Part shown: piece after piece, positions 2,485-54,280 of the stretch
Layout: each line of letters starts with the position of its first letter
How positions within the stretch are numbered: position 1 is the stretch's first letter
From: Bacteroidota bacterium
GTDB lineage: Bacteria; Bacteroidota; Bacteroidia; AKYH767-A; 2013-40CM-41-45
Assembly (NCBI GenBank): GCA_016721305.1
Contig: JADKIH010000007.1
Location: 112,595-176,594, forward strand
Length of the DNA: 64,000 bases
Direction: 5' to 3'
Program-made: the position numbers and the translations under genes
Notes under the pieces: model-generated
What the model was told of the DNA's origin: nothing
Seen by the model: the letters and a program-made list of their open reading frames with translations, nothing else
The model's database searches: none

Positions 2485-2605
2485 TTAGTAAAATTAGGTC
2501 TCGAAAAAGATTGTTACCCCCAAATATAGTCAAAAAAAGCGAATTCCGCGCTATTGAGTTGCGAGTTTTCCACAGGGGGGTGCGGGCTTCGACAAGCTCA
2601 GCCAA

Positions 2606-2671
2606 CGGGTTGCGGGTTGCGGGGTGCGGGTTACGGGTTGCGGGTTACGGGTTACGGGTTACGGGTTGCGG
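2606..2671. repeat. Tandem heptamer array (GGGTTRC)x9, G-rich on the + strand
   Basis: Direct read: gggttgcgggttgcggggtgcgggttacgggttgcgggttacgggttacgggttacgggttgcgg. Confidence 0.85.
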
Positions 2672-2756: not shown

Positions 2757-2862
2757 TACACTTACTTACTAATTACTAATTACCAATTGCTACTTACTAC
2801 TAGCTACTTACTACTTACTACTTACTACTTACTACTTACTACTTACCACTTACTACCTACTA
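2757..2862. repeat. Tandem heptamer array (TACTTAC)n with leader taattactaattaccaattgctac
   Basis: Direct read. About 12 units lie 28 bp upstream of the recF ATG. Confidence 0.85.
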
Positions 2863-2889
2863 ATCCCACACATTCCGTACCTTAGCCCC

Positions 2890-4041
2890 ATGCATCTCCA
2901 TTCCCTTTCTCTTGTCAATTTCAAGAATTACCCCGCTGCTGAGCTAATGTTCTCGTCAGGGGTAAATGCCTTTACGGGGAACAATGGAGAAGGTAAGACC
3001 AATTTGTTGGATGCGGTGCATTATCTGGCACTCTGCAAGAGCTATTTCAATCCATCCGATGTCCAGAATATCCGTCAGGGCGAGGACTTTTTCGTCGTTC
3101 AGGGAAATTTTGAACTGAACAATGTTCCCGAGATGGTGAGTTGCGGATTCAAGCGCGGACAGAAGAAAGTCTTGAAGCGTAATCAGAAGGAATATGAACG
3201 CTTGGCAGATCATATCGGAATGATACCCGTGGTGATGATTTCGCCAACCGATTCGACATTGATTACCGATGGAAGTGAAGAACGTCGAAAATTTCTCGAC
3301 AGCATCATCTCTCAATTTAATCCGCATTACTTGGACGATCTGATCAATTACGGACGAGTACTTTCGCAGCGAAATGCGTATTTGAAACAAGCATTTCAGT
3401 CGCGCCGTTTCGATATCGATTCATTATCTATTTGGGATGAACAACTCATTCCGCTTGGCAACCGAATTTTTGATGTCCGAAAAGAATTCGTTGAAGCGAT
3501 GCTGCCGATTTTCCGACATTACTACAATTTCATTTCAGGCGGGAAAGAGGAAGTTGAAATTCGTTACGATTCATATCTGGTCGACGATACATTCTCCGTT
3601 CAACTGGCGAATGCATTGGAGAAAGACCGGATTATGCAGTATACAACCGTTGGTACTCACAAAGACGATTTGCTCTTTATGATCGGCGGATTCCCTGCGA
3701 AGCGATTTGCATCGCAAGGACAGCAGAAATCATTCTTAGTCGCTCTGAAATTGGCACAATTCGATTACATGGCGAAGCAAAAAGGAATGAAGCCCATTCT
3801 TTTACTCGACGATATTTACGACAAGCTCGACGACAAACGCATTTCGCGATTGATGGAATTAGTGAGCAAGCATAATTTCGGGCAAATATTTATTACCGAT
3901 ACACACACCGAACGCGTTCTCGAAATTTTCGATCGTATTCAGGTTGACATAAAGTGTTTCTTTTTGCAAGGCGGAAACATAGAGGTATGTAAAGACGTAC
4001 ATCACCCTTCATACGCAGCTGAAAATTCAAATCCGTCATGA
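2890..4041 (+). CDS. recF: DNA replication and repair protein RecF
   Basis: N-terminal LSLVNFKNY...FTGNNGEGKTNLLDAV Walker A and an SMC-like C-terminal LLLDDI motif. 383 aa. Confidence 0.9.
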   Translation: MHLHSLSLVNFKNYPAAELMFSSGVNAFTGNNGEGKTNLLDAVHYLALCKSYFNPSDVQNIRQGEDFFVVQGNFELNNVPEMVSCGFKRGQKKVLKRNQKEYERLADHIGMIPVVMISPTDSTLITDGSEERRKFLDSIISQFNPHYLDDLINYGRVLSQRNAYLKQAFQSRRFDIDSLSIWDEQLIPLGNRIFDVRKEFVEAMLPIFRHYYNFISGGKEEVEIRYDSYLVDDTFSVQLANALEKDRIMQYTTVGTHKDDLLFMIGGFPAKRFASQGQQKSFLVALKLAQFDYMAKQKGMKPILLLDDIYDKLDDKRISRLMELVSKHNFGQIFITDTHTERVLEIFDRIQVDIKCFFLQGGNIEVCKDVHHPSYAAENSNPS

Positions 4042-4810: not shown

Positions 4811-4847
4811 GTGATTATATTGGTTGTTTTATTTTTTTTTTAGAGTT

Positions 4848-4913
4848 AGCTGATTAGCTGATTAGCTGATTAGCTGATTAGCTGATTAGCTGATTAGCTG
4901 ATTAGCTGATTAG
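4848..4913. repeat. Octamer tandem array (AGCTGATT)x8
   Basis: Direct read. It lies between the pntB stop and the ndk start. Confidence 0.85.
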
Positions 4914-5016: not shown

Positions 5017-5043
5017 ATTAGCTAATCAACTAATCAGCTAATC
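5017..5043. repeat. Inverted partner array (AGCTAATC / AATCAGCT)x3
   Basis: tattagctaatcaactaatcagctaatc is the reverse-complement orientation of the 4848-4913 array. The two arms are separated by about 105 bp and could form a hairpin. Confidence 0.75.
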
Positions 5044-13329: not shown

Positions 13330-13440
13330 TTCAATCTGCACTATTCAATCTTCCTTAAAAAACCCGCCTCAATCTTCAATTTTCAATATTCAATCTTCAA
13401 TAAATACGTCTCCAATCTTCAATAAATTCCGCTACTTTTG
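13330..13440. repeat. Degenerate tandem repeat (TTCAATCTTCAATA-like) in the ffh upstream region
   Basis: Direct read: ctcaatcttcaattttcaatattcaatcttcaataaatacgtctccaatcttcaataaa. Confidence 0.45.
13431..13438 (+). promoter_or_regulatory. putative Bacteroidetes sigmaA -7 element (TACTTTTG)
   Basis: Matches TAnnTTTG about 30 bp upstream of the ffh ATG. Confidence 0.25.
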
Positions 13441-16357: not shown

Positions 16358-16365
16358 GGAATTTA

Positions 16366-16435
16366 TGAATTCAGAATTATGAATTATGAATCTGGTTTCT
16401 GAATTTTAAATTCTAAATTTTGAATTACATTTCCG
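16366..16435. repeat. Degenerate AT-rich repeat (GAATTATGAATT-like) between queE and the OmpA gene
   Basis: Direct read. Confidence 0.4.
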
Positions 16436-16493: not shown

Positions 16494-18444
16494 ATGAAAA
16501 TTAAAAGCTTCTTACTGACCCTGCTCATCACTCTCTCACTCGCGACATACGCACAAAATAAGGAGGAGTTAACTTCATCTGTACCAAAAGCCGTTAGAGC
16601 ATTCGAAACAGCTTTGAAATACTACGATGGCAGGTTGAACCAAAAAGCAGTTGAAGCACTTGATGAGGCAATCGAAGCCGACCCTAAATTTGTAGAAGCA
16701 CATACATTGAAGGGCAACATTCTCTCCGACATGAAAGAATATGAAAAGGCCATTGCCAGTTATAAGAATGCAATTACAGCGAGTCCTGATTTTTTCCCAA
16801 ACACGTATTACTCACTCGGAAAATTACAATACCGAGCCGGGCATTATGAAGAAGCAAAATCTTCGTTCACAAAATTTTTAAGTTATGATAAAATCAGCCC
16901 GGGGCTAAAGCAAGGAGCAAATGTTCTGAGTGCGAATTGTGATTTTGCAATCAATGCAGTTAAAAATCCTGTAGCATTTGACCCGACGAATATGGGTGAT
17001 AGCATCAACTCAAAAGAAGACGAGTATTTCCCATCGTTTACAGTAGATGGACAATCTTTGCTCTTCACTCGTAAATTACCTTCAGGGAGAACATTTCAGG
17101 AAGACTTTTATAAATCAGAGTTAAAAGGATCTTCGTGGTCATTTGCAAAAGCTGTTACCGAGTTAAATACACCGGCTAACGAAGGAGCGTCTTTTATGAC
17201 GGCCGATGGACAATACTTATTTTTTGCCTCTTGTGAAGAGCTTGGAAATCCTGATTCGCGTCCGACCAAGGGAAGCTGCGATATTTTCATTGCTAAAAAA
17301 GTCGGCGATAAATTTATGAATCCGCGTGATTTGCTTGAACCGCTGAATTCAGGTGGATGGGAAAGTCAGCCATCATTTTCAACAGATGGAAGAACAATTT
17401 ACTTCGTAAAAAAAGTGAAAGAAGCTTCGAATCAAACTCACACCGATATTTATATTTCTCAATTAGACGATAAAGCAAATTGGAGCGTTCCTGTTTCAGT
17501 AAGTGATAAGATCAATACAAAGATGAATGAAAGCGCCGTCTTTATTCATCCCGATGATCAGACATTTTATTTCACATCAAACGGACATCCGGGAATGGGA
17601 GGAGAGGATATTTTTTATTCACGTCGTCAGATCGATGGAACTTGGGGCGATCCTGTAAACTTAGGCTATCCGATAAATACCGTCAACGATGAATTTGGTT
17701 TTGCCGTAAGTCCCGATGCTAAAACAGGGTACTTTGTTTCTGATCGTCCGGGCGGTTTGGGTGGTCTCGATTTATATTCATTTCCATTGTACGAAAGTGC
17801 GAGACCAAAAATCGTAACATACATGAAAGGTCGAGTTTTCGATAGTGAAACGAATGCACCTTTGGATGCATCTTTTGAATTGATTGATCTCGGTACTGGA
17901 AAAGTTATGGTTCGATCTGTGTCTGATTCCAAAACCGGTGAATTTCTTTTATGCCTTCCAACCGGCAAAACAATATGCGCTCAATGTTTCACGTTCCGGC
18001 TATTTATTCTATTCCGATCACTTCGAATTGAAAGATCCTGCTACAGCAAGTAAGCCTGTCAAAAAAGATATTCCGCTCAAACCAATCAAAGCCGGACAAA
18101 CCATTGTCCTCAACAATATCTTTTACGAAACCGACAAGTTCGATTTAAAGCCGGAATCAAAAATTGAATTGGATCGATTAGTAAGTTTCCTGAACAACAA
18201 TCCGAAAGTCCATTTCGAAATCAGCGGTCACACCGATAATGTAGGCGGAAAAGAGTACAACAAAACGCTCTCTGAAAAGCGTGCAAAAACCGTCTATGAT
18301 TATTTAGTCACCGCCGGAATTCCTGCAACAAGAATGAGTTCAAAAGGTTTTGGAGACACCGTCCCTGTTGCCGAAAACACATCCGATGCCGGTAGAGCGA
18401 AGAATCGGAGGACGGAGTTTAAGGTGACTTCTTTGGACAATTAG
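16494..18444 (+). CDS. OmpA family protein with N-terminal TPR and TolB-like beta-propeller repeats (frameshift near 17950-18050)
   Basis: Two overlapping ORFs. The C-terminal OmpA-like domain reads NNIFYETDKFDLKPES...HTDNVGGKEYNKTLSEKRA. Confidence 0.75.
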
Positions 18445-18548
18445 CTAATGGGCTGATTAGCTAATTAGCTAATGATGTTTCATCGGAAGCAGTTGGTGTA
18501 GCGCCATCAGCTAATCAGCTAATCAGCTAATCAGCTAATCAGCTAATT
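18441..18548. repeat. Inverted pair of (AGCTRATT)n arrays forming a potential long hairpin between the convergent OmpA and kdsA genes
   Basis: Left arm ttagctaatgggctgattagctaattagctaatga; right arm atcagctaatcagctaatcagctaatcagctaatcagctaatt. Confidence 0.75.
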
Positions 18549-22205: not shown

Positions 22206-22244
22206 CAGGGTAAAGATGGGAAAAAATGTCCAATTCTCTCCCAA

Positions 22245-22289
22245 ATTAGCTAATTAGCTAATTAGCTAATTGATTTAACAGCTAATCTT
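22245..22289. repeat. (AGCTAATT)x4 palindromic-phase octamer array
   Basis: Direct read: aaattagctaattagctaattagctaattga...cagctaatc. Confidence 0.75.
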
Positions 22290-27302: not shown

Positions 27303-27372
27303 GTAGCGAGGGGGGGAGTCGAACCCCCGACCTCAGGGTTATGAATCCTCTCTACCATCGAGCACCCCAATT
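27303..27372 (-). tRNA. tRNA-like element: canonical T-arm and 3' acceptor, CAT-containing anticodon loop, defective 5' half
   Basis: Minus strand reads GGGGTGCTCGATGGTAGAGAGGATTCATAACCCTGAGGTCGGGGGTTCGACTCCCCCCCTCGCTA. The T-arm GGGGGTTCGACTCCCCC is canonical, but the D-stem is missing and the 5' acceptor is not complementary. Confidence 0.4.
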
Positions 27373-27379
27373 TTTTCTT

Positions 27380-27447
27380 GGGTCGAAACCCCGTCCGCCG
27401 TGGCGGATATGAATCCTGCGCTCTAACCATCTGAGCTACCTCGCCGG
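27380..27447 (-). tRNA. tRNA-like 5' half (acceptor + D-arm + anticodon loop) lacking a T-arm and 3' acceptor
   Basis: GGCGAGGTAGCTCAGATGGTTAGAGCGCAGGATTCATATCC then a GCCACGGCGG hairpin. Its 5' acceptor GGCGAGG is complementary to the 3' acceptor CCTCGCT of element 27303-27372. Confidence 0.35.
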
Positions 27448-28344: not shown

Positions 28345-28749
28345 GTGAAGCAAGAAATCAAAGCGAAGAAAAAAGTGAAATATTCACTTGAATTTGAAGT
28401 TAAATCGTCACCAAAGATTCTCTATAATTACCTCAGTAATGCAAGTAGTCTCGAAGAATGGTTTGCCGATAAAGTAACTATCCGGGAAGGTGATTTTATT
28501 TTTCATTGGGATGGCACTGAACAACGTGCTCATATCGTAACGAAAAAGGAAAATCAGATGATCCGCTATAAGTGGGTAACTGATGATAAAAAAGACGAGA
28601 CTTTTTTCCAGTTCGAAATCGTGCAGGATGAAATTACTTCAGATGTAGCCCTTATCGTTACCGACTTTGCCGAAGAAGAGGAGAAAGAAGAAAACTCAAT
28701 GCTTTGGGATAGTCAGATTCATAACCTGATGCATATTATTGGATCCTAA
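28345..28749 (+). CDS. SRPBCC (START/AHSA1-like) family protein
   Basis: 134 aa of typical length, with an acidic tail. Confidence 0.45.
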   Translation: MKQEIKAKKKVKYSLEFEVKSSPKILYNYLSNASSLEEWFADKVTIREGDFIFHWDGTEQRAHIVTKKENQMIRYKWVTDDKKDETFFQFEIVQDEITSDVALIVTDFAEEEEKEENSMLWDSQIHNLMHIIGS

Positions 28750-28774: not shown

Positions 28775-28820
28775 TAAAAAACAGAAAGGTTAGTCAATCG
28801 ACTAACCTTTCTGTTTTTTC
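28775..28820. terminator. rho-independent terminator
   Basis: aaaaaacagaaaggttagtc-aat-cgactaacctttctgtttttt is a perfect 17-bp stem with flanking A-run and T-run. Confidence 0.7.
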
Positions 28821-28906
28821 TATCAATTCAATAATGATCTTCTGACTTCATCCAAATAAACTTGAGAAAGAATACCACAAGCCCTCATCTCAAATAAAAT
28901 TACCCA

Positions 28907-29001
28907 TCTCTAATTTCTAATTACCAATTTCTACTTTCTACTTACTACTTACTACTTACTACTTACTACTTACTACTTACTACTTACAACTTACTACTTC
29001 C
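28907..29001. repeat. (TACTTAC)x~9 heptamer array with leader ctaatttctaattaccaatttctac
   Basis: Direct read. Same leader and repeat unit as 2757-2862. Confidence 0.85.
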
Positions 29002-29017
29002 AGCCAATAAAAAAAAC

Positions 29018-29052
29018 GGCTCCTATTTCAAAAGCCGTTTACAAAGAGGTTA
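29018..29052 (-). terminator. terminator for the histone-like gene
   Basis: The minus strand reads aaacggcttttgaaataggagccgttt followed by T8. Confidence 0.55.
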
Positions 29053-29062
29053 GGACAAAAAA

Positions 29063-29251
29063 TTATGAACCTTGTCCTTCAGTCTTTTTCAGATCCTGAA
29101 TAGCATCACGCATATCCTGACAAGCACGTTTGATGTCCTGTAAGCCTTTGCGTACACGTGTTCCGGCAGCTGCATTGCCTTTTTCAGAAAACTTAATCAC
29201 ATCTTCCTCGATAGCAGCAACGAGTTGTTTGATTGCTTCGTATTCTTTCAT
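29063..29251 (-). CDS. Bacteroidetes histone H1-like small DNA-binding protein
   Basis: 62 aa with an F..KGN.AAGTRVRK.LQ.IK motif. Confidence 0.55.
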   Translation of the reverse strand: MKEYEAIKQLVAAIEEDVIKFSEKGNAAAGTRVRKGLQDIKRACQDMRDAIQDLKKTEGQGS

Positions 29252-42154: not shown

Positions 42155-43120
42155 TTAAATGAGCTTCCAGTTTCCTTCGAGCTTGAGTCCATTCAAGAAG
42201 TCCTTTATCTTCATTCGGTTTCTGCCCGACAGTTGCAAATCGGTCAGATCGATATAACCACCCGGTAGATAAACACGCAGGTAAGAACGGCCATCGCTTT
42301 CCACAGTACCTGCCGGATGTGGATGCGAAGCTTCTTTCGCATCAGCGGCAAATAGTTTCACGGCAAAGCCTATACCATTGTCGTTAGTGAGCATAGCATG
42401 GGCAGCCGGATACGGACTCAATCCTCTGATGAAATTGCGAGCTTCTTCCGGATGCAGATGGAGTGATAAACGAGTGTTTTCACGATTCAGCTTAGGAGCA
42501 CTTTTCAATTCTTCGCCGGCAGCTAATTGCTGCTGATGAGTTGTCTTCAATGCACCGGCTTCGATCGAACGAACGGTTTTCAAAATAAGCTCGGAGCCTT
42601 TTTGCATCAGCTTATCGTGTAAACTTCCTGCATTATCGTCGTACTCAACAGGAACTTCTTCTCTGAAAATTACATCTCCCGTATCGATTTCATGACGAAG
42701 GAAAAACGTTGTGATACCGCTAACTTTTTCACCACGAATAATTGCCCAATTAATTGGAGCAGCACCACGGTACTGCGGAAGGAGCGAAGCATGTAAGTTG
42801 AATGTCCCAAGCTTTGGCATGGCCCAAACAGCTTCCGGCAACATGCGAAAGGCAACCACAATCTGTAAGTCAGCCTTAAGTGATTTCAGCTCTTCAATAA
42901 AAACCGGATCTTTCAAATTGGTCGGTTGTAAAACTTTCAGACCATGCTTCACCGCACAATCTTTAACCGGCGATGAAAGAATTTTCTGTCCACGTCCGGC
43001 AGGCTTATCAGGTGCAGTGACTACTGCCAAAACCGGGTATTCATTTTCGATGAGTCTTTCCAATGCAGGCACCGCAAAATCCGGAGTCCCAAGAAAAACA
43101 ATGGAGGGCTTTTTTTGCAT
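42155..43120 (-). CDS. fmt: methionyl-tRNA formyltransferase
   Basis: Likely start at MQKKPSIVFLGTPDFA. The ORF extends upstream into the heptamer array. Confidence 0.9.
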   Translation of the reverse strand: MQKKPSIVFLGTPDFAVPALERLIENEYPVLAVVTAPDKPAGRGQKILSSPVKDCAVKHGLKVLQPTNLKDPVFIEELKSLKADLQIVVAFRMLPEAVWAMPKLGTFNLHASLLPQYRGAAPINWAIIRGEKVSGITTFFLRHEIDTGDVIFREEVPVEYDDNAGSLHDKLMQKGSELILKTVRSIEAGALKTTHQQQLAAGEELKSAPKLNRENTRLSLHLHPEEARNFIRGLSPYPAAHAMLTNDNGIGFAVKLFAADAKEASHPHPAGTVESDGRSYLRVYLPGGYIDLTDLQLSGRNRMKIKDFLNGLKLEGNWKLI

Positions 43121-43151
43121 GGGCAAATGTAGGATTCTTTCTTGGAACGTT

Positions 43152-43184
43152 TGTAAGTTGTCAGGTAAGTAGTAAGTAGTAAGT
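43152..43184. repeat. (GTAAGTA)n, the reverse-orientation TACTTAC heptamer array 32 bp upstream of fmt
   Basis: Direct read: gtaagttgtcaggtaagtagtaagtagtaagttgaccaatt. Confidence 0.75.
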
Positions 43185-43385
43185 TGACCAATTCTAAAGA
43201 ACACTTGGGCTATCACCATACAACGAATCAGGAAATAAATACCCTAATCTATTAAGCAGATTATCAACAAGATAAGCAGAGTCGGTTAATTAGGCGGAGT
43301 TCAAAAAAATCTCAAAATAATTTAAATCTTTGATGCCCTCACGGAGTTTTTATCTAAACTGCCCACCAGTTGCCTATGTAAAAGT

Positions 43386-43440
43386 CAACTTACTACTTAC
43401 AACTTACTACTTACGAATTTCTACCCACTACCTACAACTA
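43386..43440. repeat. (TACTTAC)n degenerate array downstream of the MATE gene
   Basis: Direct read: caacttactacttacaacttactacttacgaatttctacccactacctac. Confidence 0.7.
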
Positions 43441-43445
43441 GCTGG

Positions 43446-44781
43446 CTACAGAGTCTTCAACTTCTTCCAAACCCCCGACCTCAAATAAGCATAACAAGCT
43501 GCTCCGGCGAAGAGCCAGTAAATAATTTCGGAGCCCCAAACGGATTCGACACTGCCTTTGAAAACGAAGGTGAAAAGATAAATGTAAACGAGATAGAGAA
43601 AGATTGAAACGATCTCAATGTACAAAGCCATGCGTGTGGCACCGGTACCGCTAACGGCGTTGATGGAGACGATGGCAAACGAAAAGAAAATTAAGGCGAT
43701 GTCTACTATCTGCATAGTATGCAACGAATCATGTATCAATTGTTGATCATTGGTAAAAATGCCGAGTATTTCTTCCGGAAAAAGTAGATTGATCAGAATC
43801 ATCACTACAGCGACAATCATGGTCAGGCTGATGATGCGATTCAAAAGCACCATCACTTCATCTTTACGTCCCTGGCCGATAATATTGCTCACCATACTAT
43901 TCGCCGAAACCGAAAATCCCCAGAATGGTGTCATGCTGATCATATAACTTCCGCGAACTACATTCGACATGGCCAATTCGTGTGCACCGATTTTCTCGAT
44001 GAAGACAAAGAAAACAAACCATGCGCCTATTGAAAGCAGATTTTGTACGATCAACGGTAACGATAAAGTAATGATTTTCGAGACTTCCTCACGATTAAAG
44101 CTCCGGAATCTGAATAATTGAAATTCCTTGATCTCCTTTTCGAAAACAGTGAATAAAATCAAATACAACAAAGAGATAAATTCTGCCACGGAAGAAGCCA
44201 GGCCGGCACCTTTAATTCCCATAGCGGGACTTCCCCAATGACCAAAGATGAATGCATAGCCGCAAAGAATATTTACACCGGGCCATCAGAAACGAATAAT
44301 AGCCATACACTCTTGGACGGGCAATCCCAACATAAAGCGATCTGAATGCCGTTGCAAGCATCACAAAGATGATTCCATAAGATCGATAACATAAGAAATC
44401 GCTTACTGCATCTATAAGCTCGTGACCATTTAACAGAAATGGAAGCAGAGGAGGAGCTATCCATTTTAAAAAGACAAAAAGAAAAATAGCAAGAGCAGAA
44501 AGAATAATCAGACTCTGATCAAAGACTTCACCAATTGCCTGATGATTTTTTTCACCGGCACGACGTGAAATGATTATCTGTGTACCAATGCCTATCGAAA
44601 TCCCTATCATCGCAAACACAAAATACAACACACCGCCAAGAGCCGAAGCACCCAATTCCGTCTCGCCGATGCGACCAAGGAAAACGGTGTCGGTTACATT
44701 CACGACTGTCATGGCAAAGCTCCCGATCATTACCGGAAGCGCCATTCTGAAAATTTCGCGATAGCTAGTGTTTACCTGCAT
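43446..44781 (-). CDS. MATE family efflux transporter (frameshift near 44212-44290)
   Basis: Two ORFs of 12-TM topology that resemble a MATE transporter when joined. Confidence 0.65.
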
Positions 44782-54155: not shown

Positions 54156-54280
54156 GATTAGCTGATTTGATGATTTGCTGATTAGCTAATGTCATACAAA
54201 AGTGCAGTCACCCGCATAAAAAGTAATAATGTAAGTTTGACCCTGACGGCCCCATCAGCTAATTAGCTAATTAGCTAATT
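54156..54280. repeat. Inverted pair of (AGCTRATT)n arrays with a ~65-bp spacer between the convergent YdeI-like and NlpC/P60 genes
   Basis: Left arm cgattagctgatttgatgatttgctgattagctaatg; right arm catcagctaattagctaattagctaatt. Confidence 0.75.

What the first reader, a model, noticed from the sequence alone, without database searches (positions are those of the whole stretch)
2757..2862. Second repeat family: (TACTTAC)n heptamer arrays at four sites, two of them behind a conserved leader ...AATTACCAATT(G/T)CTAC...
Arrays occur at 2757-2862 (28 bp upstream of recF), 28907-29001, 43152-43184 (reverse orientation, 32 bp upstream of fmt) and 43386-43440. The first two share a 25-bp leader. Heptamer tandem arrays next to promoters are hotspots for slipped-strand change. 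Unit number would alter promoter spacing and 5' UTR length, so this could be a contingency or phase-variation mechanism acting on housekeeping genes (recF, fmt), which would be unusual. Alternatively they are a second mobile minisatellite.
Basis: seen in the sequence. Interest (0 to 1): 0.55.

Follow-up and report, generated by a model that had tools for sequence, protein, structure and literature searches.

The report
Dispersed intergenic heptamer repeat arrays
The (TACTTAC)n arrays are real, but they are an ordinary case of the heptanucleotide repeats that litter the intergenic DNA of some bacteria, here an uncultured Bacteroidota, and nothing found here supports an on/off switch for recF or fmt.

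Summary
The window comes from an uncultured Bacteroidota MAG. Its intergenic DNA also carries other 7- and 8-bp arrays.

The "leader" is a run of in-phase degenerate units (TAATTAC-CAATTKC). Sites 1 and 2 share it more than chance allows, so these two arrays are probably copies of each other. Sites 3 and 4 form an inverted pair with 24-nt arms and a 195-nt spacer.

The switch reading finds no support:
- Site 2 lies between two convergent terminators, with no gene start nearby.
- The recF array has the same unit count in three strains.
- Site 2 differs by one unit between assemblies.
- Syntenic relatives have no array upstream of recF, but carry the same motif in other spacers.
- No Bacteroidota-type promoter box flanks the recF array.

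In 116 loci from many phyla, skewed heptamer arrays follow an orientation rule already reported for G-rich heptamers in Xanthomonas and Nostoc. The 5' end of the purine-rich strand faces the nearer gene, and in inverted pairs the purine-rich arm comes first (36 to 2).

Verdict: a new member of a known kind (heptameric simple-sequence repeats, STRR-like). Function is unproven, and interest is low to moderate.

The parts
2763..2867 (+). Site 1. (TACTTAC)n array in the divergent spacer between the TPR gene and recF: 14 units plus one decayed unit. It ends 27 nt (perfect part) before the recF ATG at 2890. The pyrimidine-rich strand is the recF sense strand.
   Evidence: TRF; probe; unit-by-unit phasing; the same unit count in L001 and L002
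2770..2790 (+). The 'leader' of site 1: in-phase variant units TAATTAC TAATTAC CAATTGC
2605..2671 (+). Neighbouring heptamer array (ACGGGTT/GCGGGTT)n, 9 G3 tracts with 4-nt loops. It is G-rich on the strand opposite to the nearer gene (TPR, minus strand), so it follows the same orientation rule.
   Evidence: TRF; little Watson-Crick structure
28911..29001 (+). Site 2. (TACTTAC)n array of 13 units, including the variant units TAATTTC TAATTAC CAATTTC TACTTTC. It lies between the convergent genes START-domain (28345-28749 +) and Hc1 (29063-29251 -). It reads GTAAGTA in the sense of the nearer gene, Hc1.
   Evidence: one unit fewer in L118, L123 and L131
28776..28819 (.). Perfect 20-bp terminator-type hairpin with A and T runs, left of site 2
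29014..29040 (-). Terminator-type hairpin with a T tail belonging to the Hc1 gene, immediately right of site 2
43152..43188 (-). Site 3. Short (TACTTAC)3 array on the minus strand, 31 nt upstream of the fmt ATG (43120). On the plus strand it is the purine-rich left arm of an inverted pair.
43189..43383 (.). 195-nt unique spacer between the two arms. It is not repeated elsewhere in the window.
43384..43442 (+). Site 4. Degenerate (TACTTAC)n array of 8 units, starting 3-6 nt after the stop of the MATE transporter ORF (43446-44222, minus strand). It is the right arm of the inverted pair.
   Evidence: the long-range stem appears in the predicted fold
2890..4041 (+). recF (flanking gene, not part of the repeat)
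   Evidence: TIGR00611, 340 bits
42155..43120 (-). fmt (flanking gene, not part of the repeat)
   Evidence: TIGR00460, 239 bits

Best explanation
The four sites belong to a genome-wide population of intergenic heptanucleotide simple-sequence repeats. This is the class described as long simple-sequence repeats (LSSR), as cyanobacterial STRR, and as the TAACTGA and GGGNATC repeats. Shown here: the arrays are restricted to non-coding DNA. They coexist with other 7- and 8-bp arrays in the same genome. They change by whole units and by point mutations between strains. They are gained and lost between related genera. They follow the orientation rule of this class, with the purine-rich strand's 5' end toward the nearer gene. 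Inferred: units are added and removed by replication slippage. New arrays arise by copying or gene conversion from existing ones (sites 1 and 2 share derived units), and sometimes as inverted pairs (sites 3 and 4). Selection mainly decides where and in which orientation they are tolerated. The tolerated orientation puts a G-free, completely unstructured (UACUUAC)n on the sense strand before start codons, and (GUAAGUA)n, which carries stop codons in all three frames, after gene ends. They are not a dedicated switch for recF or fmt. Any effect on these genes would be a side effect on 5' UTR length or on read-through.
For: Every period-7 or period-8 array in the window with TRF score of at least 40 is intergenic; site 3 only appears to lie in an ORF because the crude gene call extends fmt upstream of its true ATG. 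Six or more different units occur in 64 kb. Site 2 sits between convergent genes and between two terminators. Strain comparison shows the recF array with an identical unit count in three strains, differing by 2 SNPs and a 3-nt indel, and site 2 differing by one 7-nt unit. Syntenic relatives with RecF 71% identical lack the recF array. They carry (GTAAGTR)n/(YACTTAC)n in other spacers that are 15-49 nt and array-free in the window. Sites 1 and 2 share 4 identical derived substitutions (P about 1e-4), in variant units that are absent from 115 other loci. Sites 3 and 4 are a 24-nt inverted pair. In 116 loci there are 335 heptamer arrays of 138 distinct units. Among 43 inverted pairs the purine-rich arm comes first in 36 and second in 2. 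Among solo arrays the purine-rich strand faces the nearer gene with odds ratio 9.6, p = 4e-8, whatever the gene orientation. All six skewed arrays in the window obey this rule. Arrays are commonest in convergent spacers and rarest in divergent ones. The array strands do not fold on their own, with a minimum free energy of 0 kcal/mol for 91 nt. Published work reports heptamers as the commonest long SSR class with polymerase slippage proposed as the cause, heptamer arrays in Bacteroidetes whose close relatives lack them (PMC4679880), and the same orientation rule, under-representation between divergent ORFs and 'phase variation unlikely' for GGGNATC repeats (PMC4692102).
Against: No expression, transcription start or per-read length data exist for this organism, so a regulatory effect of unit number cannot be excluded. 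Only two loci could be compared between strains. The one-unit difference at site 2 could in principle be an assembly error in one source. The strong orientation rule suggests that the arrays are not simply neutral. The gene calls behind the cross-locus statistics are crude longest-ORF calls, although the rule also holds in convergent spacers, where start-codon errors cannot matter. The way arrays are copied between loci is unknown.
Confidence: 0.7

Rival explanations
1. Contingency locus. Slipped-strand changes in unit number alter promoter spacing or 5' UTR length, and so switch or tune recF and fmt.
For: The arrays lie 27 and 31 nt upstream of the two start codons. Heptamer arrays can slip, and one whole-unit difference is seen at site 2.
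Against: Site 2 has no gene start. The recF array does not vary in unit number across three strains. It is absent from syntenic relatives. No TAnnTTTG box lies on the recF strand of that spacer, and there is no room for a promoter between the array and the ATG. The neighbouring genes are housekeeping genes, not surface or host-interaction genes. The same class of repeats was judged unlikely to be phase-variable elsewhere (PMC4692102).
Confidence: 0.06
2. RNA or transcription punctuation elements. Purine-first inverted pairs would act as terminator- or insulator-like hairpins, formed while the RNA:DNA hybrid is a weak pyrimidine-rich-RNA one. Pyrimidine-rich solo arrays before start codons would serve as structure-free leaders or as binding platforms for S1 or cold-shock proteins in a phylum that lacks Shine-Dalgarno pairing.
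For: Purine-first polarity is 36 to 2, the same polarity as A-run/hairpin/T-run bidirectional terminators such as 28776-28819. Closely spaced pairs are enriched in convergent spacers (5 of 71) over tandem (2 of 302) and divergent ones (0 of 86). The site 3/4 arms pair in the predicted fold, z = -2.5. The recF leader is essentially unstructured. Binding of S1 or Csp to heptamer repeats has been proposed for TAACTGA repeats (PMC4679880).
Against: The arms of the window's only pair are 195 nt apart, too far for an intrinsic terminator. Site 2 lies after two canonical terminators, where no such function is needed. The arrays are not conserved at orthologous positions in relatives. The counts for close pairs are small. 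There are no transcript data.
Confidence: 0.2
3. Arms or remnants of a MITE- or REP-like mobile element that is moved by a transposase encoded elsewhere.
For: Sites 3 and 4 look like terminal inverted repeats around a 195-nt core. In relative L133, two adjacent elements (arm, spacer, arm) are 77% identical including the non-repeat spacer. Sites 1 and 2 share derived units. Structural breakpoints lie in or beside the arrays in other strains.
Against: The L133 spacer has no match in the window or in any other locus. The window's spacer is unique. Arm lengths vary by whole units. No target-site duplications were seen. A scan of metagenome contigs with the leader pattern found only one hit in an array context among the 120 returned. 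The orientation rule holds across many phyla, which argues against one particular transposase.
Confidence: 0.1

Closest known systems
G-rich heptameric repeats GGGAATC / GGGGA(C/T)T of Xanthomonas and Nostoc (Rehm et al. 2015, PMC4692102)
   Same: Both are tandem heptamers spread over the genome and over-represented in non-coding DNA. Unit number varies between relatives, and both occur as inverted repeats too. The orientation rule is the same (G- or purine-rich strand on the coding strand after stops and on the non-coding strand before starts, nearer to its 5' neighbouring ORF). Both are under-represented between divergent ORFs and are not tied to surface genes.
   Different: The unit here (GTAAGTA/TACTTAC) has isolated G's and cannot form a G-quadruplex. 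The host is a Bacteroidota. There is no preference for four units. The neighbouring (CGGGTTG)n array at 2605-2671 is the closer analogue of that family.
TAACTGA heptamer direct repeats of Beggiatoaceae, cyanobacteria and five Bacteroidetes (MacGregor 2015, PMC4679880)
   Same: Both are intergenic heptamer direct repeats, often just upstream of start codons in a fixed orientation. Both are mixed with other heptamer arrays in the same spacers. They include long arrays in Bacteroidetes. Close relatives have shorter spacers without repeats. The downstream genes have no common function and include essential genes.
   Different: The unit is different. TAACTGA carries stop codons in the 'forward' orientation, whereas TACTTAC has none. 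Here only two of the four sites precede a start codon.
Cyanobacterial STRR sequences and long simple-sequence repeats of prokaryotes (Mazel et al. 1990, from my own knowledge; Mrazek et al. 2007, as summarised in PMC4679880)
   Same: Both are heptanucleotide tandem arrays dispersed in intergenic DNA. Heptamers are the commonest long SSR class, attributed to polymerase slippage.
   Different: The organism is not a cyanobacterium (no HIP1 site in 64 kb; Bacteroidota proteins). The unit is not one of STRR1-3.
Phase-variable contingency loci (for example Haemophilus or Neisseria tetranucleotide tracts, and Moraxella uspA2 AGAT repeats in a 5' UTR)
   Same: Both are simple-sequence tracts next to a gene start that can change by whole units.
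   Different: Here the units are 7 nt, the neighbouring genes are housekeeping genes, one array has no gene start beside it, the arrays are not conserved in relatives, and no hypervariability is seen between strains.

Membership tests
Heptameric long simple-sequence repeats (LSSR / STRR-like class) | Head-to-tail tandem copies of a 7-nt unit, longer than chance allows | tested here: met
   3-14 units per site. 25 probe matches against 0.17 expected.
Heptameric long simple-sequence repeats (LSSR / STRR-like class) | Many dispersed loci, strongly biased to non-coding DNA | tested here: met
   Four loci in 64 kb. Every period-7 or period-8 array with TRF score of at least 40 is intergenic, although only about 12% of the window is non-coding.
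Heptameric long simple-sequence repeats (LSSR / STRR-like class) | Coexistence of several unrelated heptamer units in the same genome or spacers | tested here: met
   CGGGTTG, TCAATCT and TTATGAA arrays in the window. 138 distinct units in 116 loci.
Heptameric long simple-sequence repeats (LSSR / STRR-like class) | Unit number and presence vary between strains and related species | tested here: met
   A one-unit difference at site 2. The recF array is absent in relatives, which carry the motif elsewhere.
Heptameric long simple-sequence repeats (LSSR / STRR-like class) | Orientation rule of Rehm et al.: the G- or purine-rich strand has its 5' end toward the nearer ORF | tested here: met
   All six skewed arrays in the window obey it. 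Odds ratio 9.6, p = 4e-8, for solo arrays in other loci. Inverted pairs 36 to 2.
Cyanobacterial STRR sensu stricto | Cyanobacterial (heterocystous) host and STRR1-3 units | tested here: not met
   No HIP1 octamer in the window. The proteins match uncultured Bacteroidota. The unit is TACTTAC.
Phase-variable contingency locus | The tract lies inside a reading frame or between core promoter elements of the regulated gene | tested here: not met
   All arrays are outside ORFs. No TAnnTTTG box lies on the recF strand in 2485-2889, and only 27 nt separate the array from the ATG. Site 2 has no gene start. The sigma-70-type scan shows nothing above the shuffle background.
Phase-variable contingency locus | High-frequency unit-number variation between and within strains | tested here: inconclusive
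   recF array: the same count in 3 strains. Site 2: one unit of difference. Per-read heterogeneity cannot be tested with these tools.
Phase-variable contingency locus | Association with surface, host-interaction or restriction-modification genes | tested here: not met
   The neighbours are recF, a TPR protein, fmt, a MATE transporter, a START-domain protein and Hc1.
MITE / REP-like mobile element | Terminal inverted repeats around a core that is conserved between copies | tested here: not met
   Sites 3 and 4 have inverted arms, but the 195-nt core is unique in the window. The L133 spacer model hits only itself.
MITE / REP-like mobile element | Target-site duplications and an associated transposase | not tested
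   No duplication is obvious at the array edges by eye. The rest of the source genome is not available to search for a transposase.
Intrinsic terminator | A compact G+C-containing hairpin followed directly by a U tract | tested here: not met
   The arms of the only pair are 195 nt apart. Solo arrays have no structure. Canonical terminators lie beside site 2, not inside it.

The most novel reading that the evidence does not exclude
The orientation rule (the purine-rich strand's 5' end toward the nearer gene, and the purine-rich arm first in inverted pairs) holds here for a unit that cannot form a G-quadruplex, and across many phyla. It may therefore reflect a general, strand-specific function or insertion mechanism of heptamer arrays rather than G4 biology. 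One possibility is a dispersed punctuation system: purine-rich RNA after genes, structure-free pyrimidine-rich leaders before genes, and paired arms acting as hairpin insulators. Lineage-specific copying between loci would explain the shared TAATTAC-CAATTKC units.
Probability: 0.15. Interest if true: 0.55.

Novelty: new member of a known kind. Interest (0 to 1): 0.25.

Why it matters
For this window, the result removes an attractive but unsupported idea, phase variation of recF and fmt. It files the arrays under a described class of repeats whose function is still unknown. Two points have some wider use. First, uncultured wastewater or freshwater Bacteroidota join cyanobacteria, Xanthomonas and Beggiatoaceae as lineages rich in heptamer arrays, and these arrays break short-read assemblies exactly at such sites. 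Second, the orientation rule reported for G-quadruplex-type heptamers also holds for a non-G4 unit in about a hundred unrelated genomes. This points to a cause based on purine/pyrimidine strand asymmetry, which transcript-end mapping could test.

Tried and rejected
1. A cyanobacterial origin was rejected. There is no HIP1 site and the proteins are from Bacteroidota.
No genome-wide census of the source was therefore possible.
3. The metagenome scan with the leader pattern TTACCAATTNCTACTT returned 120 hits, nearly all chance matches in unrelated sequence. Only one was in an array context.
4. Exact-protein look-ups for fmt (two start choices), the MATE ORF and the TPR protein found nothing. Sites 3 and 4 and the left side of site 1 could therefore not be compared between strains.
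5. An nhmmer model of the L133 spacer found no copy in the window or in other loci, so a shared MITE core is not supported.
6. An alignment of the flanks of all sites showed no convincing conserved flank beyond the arrays. A short YCTCAAAT-like motif about 15 nt upstream of some arrays was seen by eye only and was not pursued.
7. Promoter searches were uninformative for recF, both sigma-70 type and the Bacteroidota -7 box TAnnTTTG. The total number of TAnnTTTG matches in the window is not above chance.
8. Rfam found no RNA family at any array.
9. A start-versus-stop context rule was tested and is weak (odds ratio about 2). The 'nearer gene' rule explains the data much better.
10. A literature search for the unit itself found nothing relevant.

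Full report
**1. The observation**

- Tandem Repeats Finder lists period-7 arrays at 2763-2862 (14.3 copies, unit TACTTAC), 28931-28999 (9.9 copies), 43165-43184 (2.9 copies, opposite strand) and 43388-43439 (7.4 copies, degenerate).
- A two-unit probe with up to two mismatches gives 25 matches against 0.17 expected. All of them fall in these four places.
- recF (2890-4041) and fmt (42155-43120) are correctly identified (TIGR00611 and TIGR00460).
- The arrays end 27 nt before the recF start codon and 31 nt before the fmt start codon.
- Independent metagenome assemblies from several samples carry the same arrays, so they are not an assembly artefact.

**2. The organism and the genomic background**

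- The window has 40-45% G+C and no HIP1 octamer.
- Its RecF is identical to a protein of an uncultured "Bacteroidetes bacterium" MAG, MBL0104013.1. The next relatives are 71% identical.
- The TACTTAC arrays are only one of several short-period families in the window:
  - (CGGGTTG)n at 2605-2671, in the same spacer as site 1;
  - (TCAATCT)n at 13369-13401;
  - (TTATGAA/TTCTGAA)n at 16363-16427;
  - an octamer family (TTAGCTGA / AATTAGCT) at 4846-4913, 5022-5043, 18439-18547, 22244-22271 and 54257-54280.
- With a crude gene set covering 88% of the window, every period-7 or period-8 array with TRF score of at least 40 is intergenic. Site 3 looks like an exception only because the longest ORF for fmt extends upstream of the true ATG.

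**3. Anatomy of the four sites**

*Phasing.* When phased in sevens, the "leader" dissolves into degenerate repeat units.
- Site 1 reads TACTTAC TAATTAC TAATTAC CAATTGC TACTTAC TACTAGC (TACTTAC)x6 CACTTAC TACCTAC.
- Site 2 reads TAATTTC TAATTAC CAATTTC TACTTTC (TACTTAC)x7 AACTTAC TACTTCC.

*The shared variant units.* The two arrays share four identical derived substitutions in the same register. A simulation of independent substitutions gives P of about 1e-4. In 115 other loci that carry the same repeat, TAATTAC, CAATTGC and CAATTTC occur in none and CAATTAC in two, one of which is the close relative L133. So the shared pattern is not a common parallel mutation. The two arrays are most likely copies of one another, by duplication or by gene conversion.

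*Gene context.*
- Site 1 lies in a divergent spacer between a TPR gene and recF.
- Site 2 lies between convergent genes, a START-domain gene on the plus strand and an Hc1 histone-like gene on the minus strand.
- Site 2 is also bracketed by two terminator-type hairpins, at 28776-28819 and 29014-29040. No promoter or 5' UTR is available there.
- Sites 3 and 4 are one structure. The arms GTAAGTAGTAAGTAGTAAGTTGAC and GTCAACTTACTACTTACAACTTAC are 96% complementary over 24 nt with 195 nt between them. They fill the spacer between the stop of a MATE transporter ORF and the fmt start.
- In a fold of the minus-strand RNA the two arms pair (z = -2.5).

*Structure of the array strands.* On its own, the array strand has no structure at all. 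The minimum free energy is 0 kcal/mol for 91 nt of site 2, and -8.4 kcal/mol for 161 nt of the recF upstream region.

**4. Variation between strains**

*recF array.* Two assemblies from other samples (L001, L002) are about 99% identical to the window over 2 kb. They have the same number of units at the recF array and differ by two substitutions and one 3-nt indel. Two further assemblies (L003, L004) have identical RecF but a different 65 nt upstream. That sequence joins inside the last two units of the array, and both contigs end at the same base. This looks like a rearrangement or an insertion within the array. It could not be followed further.

*Site 2.* Three assemblies that span the whole spacer (L118, L123, L131) have exactly one unit (7 nt) fewer than the window. 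In two other samples the contigs diverge or stop at window position 28835, about 60-75 nt left of the array, where a small extra ORF follows.

*Reading.* The arrays behave like ordinary microsatellites, with occasional whole-unit changes. They sit next to structurally variable DNA. There is no sign of hypervariability. The one-unit difference could also be an assembly error in one source.

**5. Comparison with relatives**

- Two syntenic loci from relatives (L133 from GCA_016714715.1, and L134) keep the order ComA-TPR-recF-DciA-ndk-pntB.
- Their TPR-recF spacers are 231 and 139 nt and hold no array, against 405 nt in the window. The window's two arrays sit between blocks that are conserved in all three.
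- The same relatives carry the same motif elsewhere, as inverted pairs (GTAAGTR)n ... (YACTTAC)n:
  - between ffh and folD, and between folD and queE, in L133;
  - as a compact hairpin at the end of a DinB-family gene in L134.
- In the window the ffh-folD and folD-queE spacers are 15 and 49 nt, without repeats.
- Other units (AGGTCAA/TTGACCT, AAAGTCA/TTTTGAC) form similar pairs in L134.
- The two adjacent L133 elements are 77% identical including their non-repeat spacer. That spacer has no match anywhere else.
- Arrays are therefore gained, lost and replaced on the time scale of genera. They are not conserved regulatory parts of particular genes.

**6. Wider distribution and an orientation rule**

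These came from many phyla, with many Bacteroidota (Terrimonas, Ferruginibacter, Sediminibacterium, Saprospiraceae and others), cyanobacteria (Calothrix, Rivularia), Patescibacteria and Firmicutes. This is a description of an arbitrary sample, not a census. Together with the window and the two relatives, these 116 loci hold 335 heptamer arrays of 138 distinct units. 84 of the 116 loci carry at least two arrays. The motif therefore marks genomes that are rich in heptamer arrays generally.

*Polarity of inverted pairs.* Among 43 inverted array pairs, the purine-rich arm comes first on either strand in 36 and second in 2.

*Polarity of solo arrays.* Arrays that are purine-rich on the plus strand lie nearer the left gene (47 to 13). 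Pyrimidine-rich ones lie nearer the right gene (40 to 15). The odds ratio is 9.6 and p = 4e-8. The rule holds in tandem, convergent and divergent spacers. A simple start-versus-stop rule is much weaker (odds ratio about 2).

*Spacer type.*

| Spacer type | Spacers with at least one array | Any inverted pair | Closely spaced pair (gap up to 45 nt) |
|---|---|---|---|
| Convergent | 45% (32 of 71) | 5 | 5 |
| Tandem | 28% (84 of 302) | 13 | 2 |
| Divergent | 20% (17 of 86) | 0 | 0 |

*The window.* All six skewed arrays in the window obey the rule, including the G-rich (CGGGTTG)n array.

*Caveat.* The gene calls are longest-ORF calls. Because TACTTAC has no stop codon in any frame, start positions next to such arrays are uncertain. 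The rule still holds in convergent spacers, where only stop codons matter.

**7. What is already known**

- According to MacGregor (PMC4679880), Mrazek et al. 2007 found heptanucleotide units to be the commonest long simple-sequence repeats in most prokaryotic genomes, and proposed polymerase slippage as the cause.
- MacGregor described TAACTGA heptamer direct repeats in Beggiatoaceae, cyanobacteria and five Bacteroidetes. These are mostly intergenic and often just upstream of start codons in one orientation. They are mixed with other heptamers, and close relatives have shorter spacers without them. S1, Csp or CsrA were suggested as possible binders.
- Rehm et al. (PMC4692102) described GGGNATC heptamers in Xanthomonas and Nostoc. 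These are spread over the genome and variable in number. They are under-represented between divergent ORFs. [quoted passage not shown] The authors judged them unlikely to serve phase variation.
- The rule found here is the same rule, now for a unit that cannot form a G-quadruplex.

**8. Interpretation**

*Shown.*
- The arrays are real, intergenic and dispersed, and they vary by whole units.
- They are not conserved at orthologous sites.
- Their orientation is constrained.
- Two of them are related by copying, and two form an inverted pair.

*Inferred.*
- Slippage adds and removes units.
- Copying or gene conversion spreads arrays between spacers.
- Selection filters position and orientation. 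The tolerated orientation puts (UACUUAC)n on the sense strand before genes. This sequence is G-free and structure-free, with no start or stop codons in any frame. It puts (GUAAGUA)n, with stop codons in all three frames, after genes.

*The contingency reading* fails on site 2, on the invariance of the recF array, on its absence in relatives, on the kind of neighbouring genes, and on the lack of any promoter element that the array could space. A TAnnTTTG match at 43124-43131 lies only 3 nt from the fmt ATG and is probably chance.

*A functional reading* cannot be excluded and is the most interesting residue. In it, paired arms act as hairpin insulators or terminators, and pyrimidine arrays act as leaders or protein-binding platforms. 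The purine-first polarity is the same as that of A-run/hairpin/T-run bidirectional terminators. But the window's only pair has arms 195 nt apart, and site 2 lies behind canonical terminators.

*A MITE-like reading* has only local support and fails the test for a conserved core.

**9. Verdict**

The arrays are a new member of a known kind: heptameric simple-sequence repeats, STRR-like, in an uncultured Bacteroidota. The phase-variation idea is not supported, and the "mobile minisatellite" idea is partly supported. Interest is low to moderate, mainly for the generality of the orientation rule.

Noticed in passing
It also forms inverted pairs with the G-richer arm first. As RNA, (UUAGCUGA)n on the plus strand is self-complementary through G-U pairs and folds into a perfect 30-bp hairpin (-44.6 kcal/mol, z = -10). 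The opposite strand folds far less well (-17.3 kcal/mol).
   Followed up: partly
window 2605-2671: A (ACGGGTT/GCGGGTT)n array with 9 G3 tracts and 4-nt loops, the sequence type that forms G-quadruplexes. It is G-rich on the strand antisense to the nearer TPR gene. Short-read contigs of other strains (L001, L002) stop just to its right.
   Followed up: partly
window 27304-27445 (minus strand): The Rfam tRNA model matches end to end (52 bits) with a 70-nt insertion right after a CAU anticodon. ARAGORN finds no tRNA here. The insert ends with GGATTCAT, which repeats the sequence before it. It also contains a T-arm-like GGGGTTTCGACCC, as if two partial tRNA copies were fused, or an element had inserted.
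   Followed up: partly
L003 1-65 and L004 1-65 (equivalent to window about 2782-2846): Two assemblies with identical RecF have an unrelated 65 nt in place of the recF array. The junction lies inside the last two units, and both contigs end at the same base. This suggests a repeated or mobile sequence inserted in the array, or a deletion that ends in it.
   Followed up: partly
L122 1421-1579 and the end of L119 (equivalent to window 28835): In two other samples the sequence left of site 2 diverges after ...CAATTCAATAAT, and a small 59-aa ORF follows on the opposite strand. This is a strain-specific insertion beside the array.
   Followed up: no
window 43446-44222 and 44212-44781; 16494-18053 and 17884-18444: A MATE transporter is split into two overlapping ORFs, the N- and C-terminal halves of TIGR00797. 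An OmpA/PorE-like gene also seems to continue in a second ORF. These could be frameshifts, pseudogenes or assembly indels.
   Followed up: no
window 13369-13401, 16363-16427; L133 17467-17539: Other heptamer arrays sit at positions that are orthologous between relatives but carry different units. Upstream of ffh the window has (TCAATCT)n, L133 has (TTAAACC)n and L134 has none. This points to turnover of arrays in place.
   Followed up: partly
L133 16751-17199: An 88-bp tandem repeat of 5.4 copies, with G-rich GGGTTGGGTTGGGG segments, lies in the spacer before ffh of the relative. It is absent from the window.
   Followed up: no
window 43124-43131 (minus strand): A perfect Bacteroidota -7 box consensus, TACATTTG, lies only 3 nt upstream of the fmt ATG. 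It is either a chance match or a hint of a leaderless fmt mRNA.
   Followed up: no
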